Assembly (NCBI RefSeq): GCF_009914755.1
Contig: NC_060933.1
Length of the DNA stretch: 64,000 nt
Source of the DNA: the human T2T-CHM13v2.0 reference genome, Homo sapiens
Strand: one strand, 5' to 3'
Below, one piece after another: positions 8,501 through 11,030 of the stretch (the first letter of the stretch is position 1; each line of letters starts with the position of its first letter). The notes beneath the pieces were generated by a model. The model worked only from the letters and a program-made list of their open reading frames with translations. It had not been told where the DNA came from and did not search any database. The position numbers and the translations under genes are program-made.

Positions 8501-11030
8501 TTATTACATCTTTGATTCTTCTCTCTTTTCTTCTTTATTAGTCTTGCTAGTGGTCTAGCAATTTTGTTGATCTTTTCCAAAAACCAGCTCCTGGATTCAC
8601 TGATATTTTGAAGGGTTTTTTTGTGTCTCTATCTCCTTCAGTTCTGCTCTGATCTTAGTTATTTCTTGCCTTCTGCTAGCTTTTGAATGTGTTTGCTGTT
8701 GCTTCTCTAGTTCTTTTAATTGTGATGTTAGGGTATCAATTTTAGATCTTTCCTGCTTTCTCTTGTGGGCATTTAGTGCTATAAATTTCCCTCTACACAC
8801 TGCTTTGAATGTGTCCCAGAGATTCTGGTATGTTGTGTCTTTGTTCTCATTGGTTTCAAAGAACATCTTTATTTCTGCCTTCATTTCGTTATGTACCCAG
8901 CAGTCATTCAGGAGCAGGTTGTTCAGTTTCCACGTAGTTGAGCGGTTGTGAGTGAGTTTCTTAATCCTGAGTTGTAGTTTGATTGCAGTGTGGTCTGAGA
9001 GACAGTTTGTTATAATTTCTGTTCTTTTACATTTGCTGAGGAGTGCTTTACTTCCAACTATGTGGTCAATTTTGGAATAAGTGTGATGTGGTGCCGAGAA
9101 GAATGTATATTCTGTTGATTTGGGGTGGAGAATTCTGTAGATGTCTGTTAGGTCTGCTTGGTGCAGAGCTGAGTTCAATTCCTGGATATCCTTGTTAACT
9201 TTCTGTCTCATTGATCTGTCTAATGTTTACAGTGGGGTTTTAAAGTCTCCCATTATTATTGTATGGGAGTCTAAGTCTCTTTGTAGGTCTCTAAGACTTG
9301 CTTTATGAATCTGGCTGCTCCCGTATTGGGTGCATATATATTTAGGATAGTTAGCTCTTCTTGTTGAACTGATCCCTTTACCATTATGTAATGGCCTTCT
9401 TTGTCTCTTTTGATCTTTGTTAGTTTAAAGTCTGTCTTATCAGAGATTAGGATTGCAACCCTGGCTTTTTTTTGTTTTCCATTTGCTTGGCAGATCTTAC
9501 TCCGTCCCTTTATTTTAAGCCTATGTGTGTCTCTGCACGTGAGATAGGTCTCCTCAGTACAGCACACTGATGGGTCTTGACTGTATCCAATTTGCCAGTC
9601 TGTGTCTTTTAATTGGAGCATTTAGCCCATTTACATTTAAAGTTAATATTGGTATGTGTGAATTTGATCCTGTCATTATGATGTTAGCTGGTTATTTTGC
9701 TCATTAGTTGATGCAGTTTTTTTCCTAGGCTCGATGGTCTTTACAATTTGGCATGTTTTTGCAGTGGCTGGTACCGGTTGTTCCTTTCCATGTTTAGTGC
9801 TTCCTTCAGGAGCTCTTGTAAGGCAGGCCTGGTGGTGACAGAATCTCTCAATATTTGTTTGTCTGAAAAGGATTTTATTTCTCCTTCACTTATGAAGCTT
9901 AGTTTGGCTGGATATGAAATTCTGGGTTGAAAATTCTTTTCTTTAAGAATGTTGAATATTGGCCCTCACTCTCTTCTGGCTTGTAGAGTTTCTGCTGAGA
10001 GATCCGCTGTTAGTCTGATGGGCTTCCCTTTGTGGGTAACCTGACGTTTCTGGCTGCCCTTAATATTTTTTCCTTCATTTCAACTTTGGTGAATCTGACA
10101 ATTATGTGTCTTGGAGTTGCTCTTCTTGTGGAGTATCTTTGTGGCGTTCTCTGTATTTCCTGAATTTGAATGTTGGCCTGCCTCACTAGGTTGGGGAAGC
10201 TCTCCTGGATGATATCCTGAAGGGTGTTTTCCACTGGGTTCCATTCTCCCCGTCACTTTCAGGTACACCAATCAGACGTAGTTTTGGTCTTTTCACATAG
10301 TCCTGTATTTCTTGGAGGCTTTGTTCATTTCTTTTTACTCTTTTTTCTCTAAATTTCTCTTCTCTTTTCATTTCATTCATTTGTTCTTCAATCAATGATA
10401 CTCCTTCTTCCACTTGATCAAATCGGCTACTGAAGCTTGTGCATTCGTCACATAGTTCTCTTGCCATCGTTTTCAGCTCCATCAGGTCATTCAGGGATTT
10501 CTCTACACTGTTTATTCTAGTTAGCCATTCATCTAATCTTTTTTCAAGGTTTTTAGCTTCTTTGCGATGGGTTTGAACATCCTCCTTTAGCTCGGAGAAG
10601 TTTATTATTACCCATCGTCTGAAGCCTTCTTCTCTTAACTCATCAAAGTCATTCCCAGTCCAGCTTTGTTCCGTTGCTGGTGAGGAGCTGCGTTCTTTTG
10701 GAGGGGGAGAGGCGCTCTGATTTTTAGAATTTTCAGCTTTTCTGCTCTGGTTTCTCCCATCTTTGTGGTTTTATCTACCTTTGGTCTTTGTTGATGGTGA
10801 CATACAGATGAGGTTTTCATGTGGATGTTTATTCGTTTTCCTTCTAACAGTCAGGACCCTCGGCTGCAGGTCTGTTGGAGTTTGCTGGAGGTGCACTTCA
10901 GACCCTGTTTGCCTGGATATCACTAGCGGAAGCTCAGTTGGAAATGCAGAAATCATTCGTCTTTTGTGTCGCTCACGCTGGGAGCTACAGACTGGAGCTG
11001 TTCCTATTTGGCCATCTTGGAACCTCCTCC
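5584..11030 (-). mobile_element. L1PA5-like LINE-1, 5'-complete but with spliced 5'UTR; ORF1/ORF2 disrupted; inserted in a MIR
   Basis: ORF1/ORF2 peptide fragments in the track; 5' end GGAGGAGGTTCCAAGATGGCC. TSD gtgactgagtatct (5570-5583) / gtgactgcttatct (11031-11044), with MIR-like sequence on both sides. Confidence 0.95.

What the first reader, a model, noticed from the sequence alone, without database searches (positions are those of the whole stretch)
10761..11030. Retrotransposed spliced L1 (SpIRE) using an acceptor specific to older L1 5'UTRs
Seen: in L1 sense, the first 98 nt end ...CATTTCCAACTGAG and join directly (10933/10932) to CTTCCGCTAGTGATA. The full-length L1 in this window shows what is missing: 748 nt (51071 down to 50324) starting GTACCG and ending ctgttctgcAG, an exact GT-AG intron. 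Known: SpIREs use the +97 donor, with acceptors described at L1HS positions 622, 790 and 976. From recall, the acceptor here lies in the 129-bp ZNF93-bound segment deleted during L1PA3 evolution, so it has no L1HS equivalent. Inference: a possibly uncatalogued SpIRE class, implying that the 129-bp deletion also removed a splice acceptor that produced promoter-dead copies. The splice also removed the antisense promoter and ORF0, which would otherwise point at the CCDC171 start exon.
Basis: partly seen in the sequence, partly recalled or inferred. Interest (0 to 1): 0.8.

Follow-up and report, generated by a model that had tools for sequence, protein, structure and literature searches.

The report
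Spliced L1 copy of known class
This is a fossil L1 retrotransposon copied from a spliced L1 RNA that lost most of its promoter region; the splice form was already described in 2018, although this copy and about forty others are missing from the published list.

Summary
An L1 on the minus strand (11030 to about 5587, about 5.44 kb) joins its first 98 nt directly to CTTCCGCTAGTGATA at 10933|10932. The intact L1 in the same window has 748 nt, GT...AG, between the homologous points (51071-50324). The copy has a 16-nt target-site duplication (13/16 identical), an A-rich tail and broken ORFs, so it is a retrotransposed spliced L1 (SpIRE).

The claim of an uncatalogued class fails. Larson et al. 2018 (PMC5860796) describe it as SpIRE97/853: donor G98U99, acceptor A851G852 inside the 129-bp ZNF93 segment. 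They show RT-PCR evidence, list nine genomic copies, and already infer that the 129-bp deletion changed L1 splicing. Their printed junctions match this one.

Two things are new. This CCDC171 copy is not among their nine. The junction occurs at 78 places in T2T-CHM13 (0 in the reversed control), which reduce to 52 independent insertions, nine of them theirs. These fall in at least three L1PA sequence types. On a tree with 30 intact L1s they are interleaved, so splicing was recurrent and no spliced master is indicated.

Verdict: real, ordinary, already explained, with a modest extension of the census.

The parts
11031..11046 (-). 5' copy of the target-site duplication (AAAGATAAGCAGTCAC)
   Evidence: It matches the 3' copy at 13 of 16 positions, compared by eye.
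10933..11030 (-). L1 5'UTR exon 1: the first 98 nt of the L1, ending ...CATTTCCAACTGAG just upstream of the +97 donor
   Evidence: 85 nt align at 92.9% to the 5' end of the intact L1 of the window. 81-84 of 90 nt are identical to intact L1s elsewhere.
10761..10932 (-). Rest of the 5'UTR, from the first base after the acceptor (CTTCCGCTAGTGATA...) to the base before the ORF1 ATG. It is about 171-172 nt, against about 180 nt in four of the six other copies of its clade (179 in a fifth).
   Evidence: Same junction as the SpIRE97/853 clones in Larson S1 Data.
5587..10760 (-). L1 body (ORF1, ORF2, 3'UTR, degenerate A-rich tail at about 5604-5587). The coding capacity is destroyed.
   Evidence: Colinear with the intact L1 at 92.2% over 4798 columns and 88.1% over 495. 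Largest sense ORF is 204 aa. The 3' end was read.
6084..6148 (-). Internal 65-74-nt copy of the element's own ORF1 3' part, sitting in the 3' region of ORF2 and replacing about 18 nt
   Evidence: Gap in the blastn alignment. 95.4% over 65 nt to 10051-9987, and 91.9% over 74 nt to 49460-49387.
5570..5586 (-). 3' copy of the target-site duplication (ATAGATACTCAGTCAC), directly after the A-rich tail
45034..51163 (-). Intact (unspliced) L1 used as comparator. It is not the closest relative of the SpIRE.
   Evidence: It is 84.5% identical over the 620 nt after the acceptor, against 90.0% for L087. It falls in a different starred subclade.
50324..51071 (-). The 748 nt of the intact L1 that the SpIRE lacks: GTACCG ... 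CTGTTCTGCAG
50268..50395 (-). Equivalent of the 129-bp ZNF93 segment in the intact L1 (128 nt here; ends ambiguous by a few nt because CTCC/TCC repeats at both ends). The acceptor AG (50325-50324) is at positions 71-72 of it.
   Evidence: By-eye comparison with the L1Hs/PA2 clone sequences in Larson S1 Data, which lack the segment. Stated in the text of Larson et al..

Best explanation
This is a fixed, dead, full-length SpIRE of the published class SpIRE97/853, of L1PA5-like type. It sits in intron 1 of CCDC171 in the opposite orientation to the gene.

Proposed mechanism:
1. A full-length L1 that still carried the 129-bp ZNF93 segment was transcribed from its own 5' end.
2. The spliceosome joined the strong donor after nt 97/98 to the acceptor ...CTGTTCTGCAG| inside the 129-bp segment, removing about 750 nt of 5'UTR.
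3. The spliced mRNA still encoded ORF1p and ORF2p. It was inserted by target-primed reverse transcription at a CTTT/A-like site, leaving a 14-16-nt duplication and a poly(A) tail.
4. The new copy lacked most of the internal sense promoter, the antisense promoter and ORF0, so it was an evolutionary dead end and has since decayed.

Shown here: the junction, GT-AG in unspliced relatives, the insertion hallmarks, colinearity with a full L1, and recurrence of the junction at many independent loci. Shown in print: this splice occurs in cells (RT-PCR on an L1RP 5'UTR with the L1PA4 129-bp insert). Inferred: loss of promoter activity, by analogy with the 97/622 form, which the luciferase tables seen here show was assayed. 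I saw no promoter assay of 97/853 in what I read.
For: Junction and GT...AG. TSD (13/16), A-rich tail and length of about 5444 bp; this is within the range of Larson's full-length 97/853 copies (5401-5510). Colinear with a full L1 at 92.2% over 4798 columns. Same junction as the nine published SpIRE97/853 copies, all nine of which my genome search recovered. Published RT-PCR evidence and placement of A851G852 in the 129-bp segment; I mapped this in the window by eye. The junction is at 78 places in T2T-CHM13 (reversed-pattern controls 0). All 77 loci and L109 show exon-1 sequence up to the junction; most, but not all, also show the canonical L1 5' end about 97 nt upstream. 27 share one flank, leaving 52 independent insertions. 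Intact comparators: donor GT in 29 of 31 assessed and acceptor AG in 28 of 30 placed. Tree: the window copy lies in a 99% SH-aLRT group of 17 (10 intact, 7 SpIRE) that holds the two copies Larson labels L1PA5 (L006, L004).
Against: No orthologous locus in another primate could be examined, so a post-insertion deletion is excluded only by the recurrence of the junction and the GT-AG ends. The TSD has 3 mismatches in 16, and the poly(A) tail is degenerate. The subfamily label rests on clustering with two published L1PA5-labelled copies, not on RepeatMasker or Dfam. In what I read I saw no measurement of the promoter activity of the 97/853 form, neither here nor in print. The copy is absent from the published list of nine ('CCDC171' has 0 occurrences in all eight supplementary files), so its membership is my assignment.
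Confidence: 0.95

Rival explanations
1. One reading: a new, uncatalogued SpIRE class whose acceptor was unknown.
For: The copy itself is not in the published table. The acceptor is not one of 622, 790 or 976.
Against: Larson et al. 2018 name and characterise SpIRE97/853, with the acceptor in the 129-bp segment, and list nine copies. Their printed junctions are the same as the window's.
Confidence: 0.02
2. Post-insertion genomic deletion of 748 bp from an originally intact L1, for example through the 2-nt AG microhomology, not splicing.
For: For this single copy the breakpoint is ambiguous by 2 nt. No orthologue was examined.
Against: The same junction occurs at 52 independent insertion sites with different flanks. 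The ends are GT and AG in nearly all intact relatives. The donor is the one used by all SpIRE classes, and the splice was seen by RT-PCR.
Confidence: 0.01
3. The copy descends from another SpIRE that stayed mobile through an external promoter, that is, a spliced master lineage, rather than from a fresh splicing event on an intact source.
For: A 2025 preprint (10.1101/2025.02.02.635956, passages read) reports a 97/622-type SpIRE that co-opted the RAP1GDS1 promoter and produced offspring. In my first tree, with only 18 intact comparators, SpIREs were weakly clustered (13 changes against a shuffled mean of 16.0; 28 of 500 shuffles as low).
Against: With 30 intact comparators the SpIRE label needs 22 changes against a shuffled mean of 24.6 (76 of 500 shuffles as low), and starred branches force at least 5 origins. 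The window copy's nearest row is an intact L1 (L087, 91% over 619 columns). Resolution is poor: 51 of 77 inner branches are below 80% support. Some SpIRE-to-SpIRE copying inside a type is therefore not excluded.
Confidence: 0.07
4. The intact L1 40 kb away in the same intron is the source of the SpIRE.
For: Both carry a rare 31-mer (CAAAAGACGAATG...) that is exact at only 3 places in the genome. Both have the same orientation.
Against: Identity over the 620 nt after the acceptor is 84.5%, against 85.0-90.0% for all nine other comparators aligned over that full stretch. They lie in different starred subclades. Exon 1 is not closer to the neighbour (81/90) than to three unlinked L1s (84/90).
Confidence: 0.03

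Closest known systems
SpIRE97/853 (Larson et al. 2018, PLoS Biol 16:e2003067; PMC5860796)
   Same: Same donor (after nt 97/98). Same acceptor (...CTGTTCTGCAG| inside the 129-bp ZNF93 segment). Same junction sequence apart from point substitutions. Full length of about 5.4 kb, with TSD and a poly(A) remnant. It clusters with their L1PA5-labelled copies.
   Different: It is not one of their nine listed copies (chromosomes 2, 2, 3, 3, 4, 4, 12, 14, 15). It carries private changes at the junction (CTTCCGCTAGTGATAT against CCTCCGCTGGTGATAC), a 9-nt deletion in the 5'UTR, and an internal ORF1-derived 65-74-nt insert.
SpIRE97/622, the commonest published class (116 copies, L1PA1-L1PA6)
   Same: Same donor, same consequence (loss of most of the internal promoter), same mode of insertion.
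   Different: Its acceptor is about 230 nt further upstream (...CTGACAG|CTTTGAAGAGAG) and is retained in L1HS. The window copy lacks that stretch altogether.
SpIRE97/790 (L1PA1/L1PA2 only)
   Same: Same donor. Its acceptor lies 61 nt downstream of the one used here.
   Different: According to Larson et al. it is used only after the 129-bp deletion brought it near a branch point. The window copy retains the 61 nt between the two acceptors.
Processed pseudogenes (retrocopies of spliced cellular mRNAs)
   Same: An intron-less copy of a spliced RNA inserted by the L1 machinery, with TSD and poly(A).
   Different: Here the template is L1's own mRNA, presumably acting in cis.

Membership tests
SpIRE97/853 | L1 5'UTR retained from the canonical 5' end up to the donor at nt 97/98 | tested here: met
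   (85 nt at 92.9% to the 5' end of the intact L1).
SpIRE97/853 | Exon 1 joined directly to the base after A851G852, the acceptor inside the 129-bp L1PA3/4 segment | tested here: met
   The junction is the same as in the published clones. The acceptor was mapped to positions 71-72 of the 128-nt segment equivalent, by eye against L1Hs/PA2 sequences. The published numbering (851/852) could not be checked base for base, because I held no copy of their construct.
SpIRE97/853 | The missing stretch starts GT and ends AG in unspliced relatives | tested here: met
   (window). GT in 29 of 31 and AG in 28 of 30 intact comparators.
SpIRE97/853 | L1 insertion hallmarks: TSD, poly(A), endonuclease-type target site | tested here: met
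   16-nt TSD at 13/16, a degenerate A-rich tail, and a CTTT/A-like site inferred from the flank.
SpIRE97/853 | Reduced promoter activity of the spliced 5'UTR | not testable with these tools
   The luciferase tables seen here cover 97/622. I saw no luciferase assay of a 97/853 5'UTR in the sections and passages read.
SpIRE97/853 | The splice occurs in RNA | not testable with these tools
   Published RT-PCR on pJBMWT129PA4LUC. No RNA data were available here.
L1PA5 subfamily | Diagnostic subfamily positions (RepeatMasker/Dfam) | tested here: inconclusive
   There is only indirect support: a 99% SH-aLRT group with two copies that Larson labels L1PA5, and a 5'UTR tail of the about 180-nt kind (five of the six other copies of that clade; the sixth had no ATG match), not the about 200-208-nt kind found in copies outside that clade, among them three of their L1PA6 copies.

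The most novel reading that the evidence does not exclude
SpIRE97/853 is not a minor class of nine copies. It may have been the main spliced-L1 form of the older L1PA subfamilies. I find 52 independent insertions. They include a sequence type that looks older than the published L1PA5/6 range (by recall L1PA7/8-like) and about 5% of elements carrying an L1PA6-type exon-1 motif (5 of 106). If so, the acceptor in the 129-bp segment imposed a steady loss of progeny on L1PA8-L1PA4. Its removal together with the ZNF93 site would then have given L1PA3 a second advantage, followed by a shift of acceptor use to 622 and 790.
Probability: 0.3. Interest if true: 0.45.

Novelty: new member of a known kind. 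Interest (0 to 1): 0.25.

Why it matters
As posed, the finding adds nothing to the field. The splice class, its acceptor in the ZNF93 segment, and the idea that the 129-bp deletion rewired L1 splicing were all published in 2018.

The useful by-product is a census. A simple junction-motif scan of a complete genome finds about six times more independent copies than the published BLAT search (52 against 9), spread over more L1PA types. This would change estimates of how often splicing sterilised L1 progeny in older subfamilies. It also shows that old SpIREs are under-annotated as 'full-length' L1s. The count still needs proper subfamily calls and the same scan for the other junction classes.

Tried and rejected
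- MAFFT of the spliced 5'UTR against the intact one misplaced exon 1. I used blastn and direct reading instead.
- I tested the neighbouring intact L1 as the source and rejected it.
- I tested a single spliced master lineage. It is not supported, but it is not excluded within types because the tree is poorly resolved.
- I asked whether the 'older' exon-1 type simply lacks the 750 nt natively. It does not. There are 498 exact unspliced matches with GT after the donor. The three intact comparators of that type that could be placed carry the acceptor, and in the two where both ends were located the intron is 1019-1037 nt.
- A scan for L1PA4-type junctions with a looser pattern added only one new place.
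- Flank clustering joined L006 and L058. I treat them as separate insertions: both flanks read as A-rich tails (for L006, for L058), they are on different chromosomes, and they fall in different clades.
- I did not run the equivalent census for the 97/622, 97/790 and 97/976 junctions, because those junction strings occur in neither the window nor my loci.
- Two literature searches for a later SpIRE catalogue found none (listings only, apart from the papers named above).
- I saw no figures of any paper.

Full report
**Observation.** On the minus strand an L1 begins GGAGGAGGTTCCAAGATGG at 11030. After 98 nt (...CATTTCCAACTGAG, last base 10933) it continues at 10932 with CTTCCGCTAGTGATATCCAGG and reaches the ORF1 ATG at 10760. 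The intact L1 of the same window (minus strand, about 51163 to 45034) has ...CCAACTCAG, then GTACCG from 51071, and ...CTGTTCTGCAG ending at 50324, then CCTCTACTGCTGATACCCAGG. MAFFT misplaced exon 1. blastn aligns 11020-10936 to 51159-51075 (92.9%) and 10922-6158 to 50313-45547 (92.2% over 4798 columns).

**The whole element.** The L1 runs to a degenerate A-rich tail ending near 5587. Directly before the 5' end lies AAAGATAAGCAGTCAC (11046-11031), and directly after the tail lies ATAGATACTCAGTCAC (about 5586-5570). These agree at 13 of 16 positions and form a target-site duplication. The flank implies a CTTT/A-like endonuclease site. The length is about 5444 bp, within the 5401-5510 range of the full-length published copies of this class. 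No sense ORF exceeds 204 aa, so the copy is a fossil. It lies in intron 1 of CCDC171, opposite to the gene. That the deleted 99-846 region held the antisense promoter and ORF0 rests on general knowledge of the L1 5'UTR. Larson's introduction says only that the 5'UTR harbours them; their positions are recalled.

**What is known.**
- Larson et al. 2018 (PMC5860796) report 116 SpIRE97/622, 4 SpIRE97/790 and 11 SpIRE97/976 copies in hg38 (section 7).
- Section 16 goes further. [quoted passage not shown]
- A BLAT probe across that junction found nine SpIRE97/853 copies with L1 hallmarks.
- They conclude that loss of the 129 bp created a new splicing pattern.
- Their S1 Table lists the nine on chromosomes 3, 2, 4, 4, 15, 3, 14, 2 and 12, labelled PA5, PA6 or PA4-PA6.
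- Their S1 Data print junctions such as ...TTTCCAGCTGAG|CCTCCGCTGGTGATA, the same join as in the window.
- L1Hs and PA2 clones in the same file read ...CACACGGCAGGGTATTCCAACAGACC... and lack the segment. Against, this puts the segment equivalent at about 50395-50268 in the window's intact L1, with the acceptor AG at its positions 71-72.

The UCSC Repeat Browser preprint repeats the point (passages).

**Is this copy listed?** No. There is no chromosome 9 entry in the 97/853 sheet, and 'CCDC171' occurs 0 times in the eight supplementary files.

**Census in the window's own assembly (T2T-CHM13).**
- The junction motif with up to 2 mismatches matches 77 places; the reversed control matches 0.
- A looser pattern matches 76 places, one of them new, again with control 0. 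The union is 78 places.
- I inspected all 77 and the extra one (L109). Each shows L1 exon-1 sequence running up to the same junction. Most also show the canonical L1 5' end about 97 nt upstream. A few have a diverged, internally deleted or slightly truncated 5' end (for example L051, L007, L061).
- All nine published copies were recovered, matched by chromosome, approximate place and, for most, printed flank or junction.
- Flank clustering puts 27 places in one family, a segmental duplication mostly on acrocentric short arms.
- It also joins L006 with L058. I treat these as two insertions. Both flanks read as A-rich tails. They lie on different chromosomes and in different clades.
- That leaves 51 independent insertions, or 52 with L109 (its flank was judged distinct by eye only). 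Of these, 43 are not in the published list.

**Frequency.**
- Exact 35-mers of exon 1 plus GT count 498 for the AGAAGG type and 1590 for the AGAAGA type. The same exon-1 ends sit at the junction in 5 and 15 of the 51 independent SpIRE loci. That is about 1% each.
- The unspliced counts are not de-duplicated, and the tool calls them lower bounds.
- An L1PA6-type exon-1 motif has 106 exact matches in all, and 5 of them are SpIRE97/853, or 4.7%.

**One origin or many?** I fetched 31 intact L1s of three exon-1 types and added the window's intact L1.
- Donor GT is present in 29 of 31 assessable comparators.
- Acceptor AG is present in 28 of 30 placed comparators.
- In the two comparators of the 'older' type where both ends could be located, the intron is 1019-1037 nt. 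That type therefore has the intron natively.
- A first tree of the about 640 nt after the acceptor had 51 SpIREs and 18 intact rows. It gave 13 label changes against a shuffled mean of 16.0 (28 of 500 as low).
- The second tree had 50 SpIREs and 30 intact rows over 659 columns. It gave 22 changes against 24.6 (76 of 500 as low), and starred branches forced at least 5 changes.
- Rows left out of the second tree: 26 of the 27 duplicated copies, L030 (L1 homology ends about 37 nt after the junction), L109 (fetched later), and the intact L078 and L094 (could not be placed).

SpIREs are thus interleaved with intact elements. Splicing recurred, and no spliced master is indicated, though 51 of 77 inner branches have under 80% support.

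Three groupings stand out:
- A 99% group of 17 rows (10 intact, 7 SpIRE) holds the window copy and both published PA5 copies.
- A 99% group of 16 rows (13 SpIRE) is of the 'older' GCTGGCAAGATGG type. By recall this is L1PA7/8-like; I did not test that.
- An unresolved remainder of 30 SpIREs holds all five published PA6 copies.

The window copy's best match is an intact L1 (L087, 91% over 619 columns).

**The neighbour L1.** Both L1s of the window carry a 31-mer that is exact at only three places in the genome. However, they are only 84.5% identical over the 620 nt after the acceptor, against 90.0% for L087. They sit in different starred subclades. Exon 1 is no closer to the neighbour (81/90) than to unlinked copies (84/90). 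The neighbour is not the source.

**Verdict.** Its class, SpIRE97/853, its acceptor and its link to the ZNF93 deletion are already described. Only this copy, and a larger census than the published nine, are new. I found no later catalogue of SpIREs in two full-text searches. A 2025 preprint shows that a SpIRE can regain mobility through a host promoter. My tree does not call for that explanation here.

Noticed in passing
window 6084-6148 (minus strand): Inside the 3' part of ORF2 the SpIRE carries a 65-74-nt copy of its own ORF1 3' region. It is 95.4% identical to 10051-9987 and replaces about 18 nt. Possible causes are a template switch during reverse transcription or a later patch..
   Followed up: partly
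L001, L008, L027, L028, L031-L035, L037, L038, L041-L048, L050, L057, L063, L065, L069-L072 (G000 C1, C3, C9, C13, C14, C15, C21, C22, C24): One older-type SpIRE97/853, with its flank, is present in 27 copies. They lie mostly on acrocentric short arms, plus chr1, chr3, chr9 and C24. It was therefore carried along by a segmental duplication..
   Followed up: partly
window 10936-10966 and 51075-51105 (minus strand): The two L1s of the window share a 31-mer (CAAAAGACGAATG...) that is exact at only 3 places in the genome. About 45 other L1s carry the one-step variant CAGAAGACGAATG. The two L1s are otherwise not close relatives. This could be coincidence, a small sub-lineage or a short conversion tract..
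   Followed up: partly
L095, L096 (G000 C1): Intact L1s of the GCTGGCAAGATGG / AGAAGG exon-1 type have 1019-1037 nt between the same donor and acceptor, against 719-758 nt in the other types. Their 5'UTR therefore holds about 280 extra nt..
   Followed up: no
L030 (G000 C13:84930192), L007, L010: Some junction-bearing copies lose L1 homology soon after the junction (L030, after about 37 nt) or sit on very long branches (L007, L010). Larson lists L007 and L010 as 3'-truncated..
   Followed up: no
L075 (G000 C4:178943726): This is the only junction copy with a young-type exon 1 (GGAGGAGCCAAGATGG ... CCATCTGAG). Its exon 2 starts ACACTGCTGCTGATA, which is the L1PA4-like form of the acceptor flank with a changed first base. 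It is not in the published list..
   Followed up: partly
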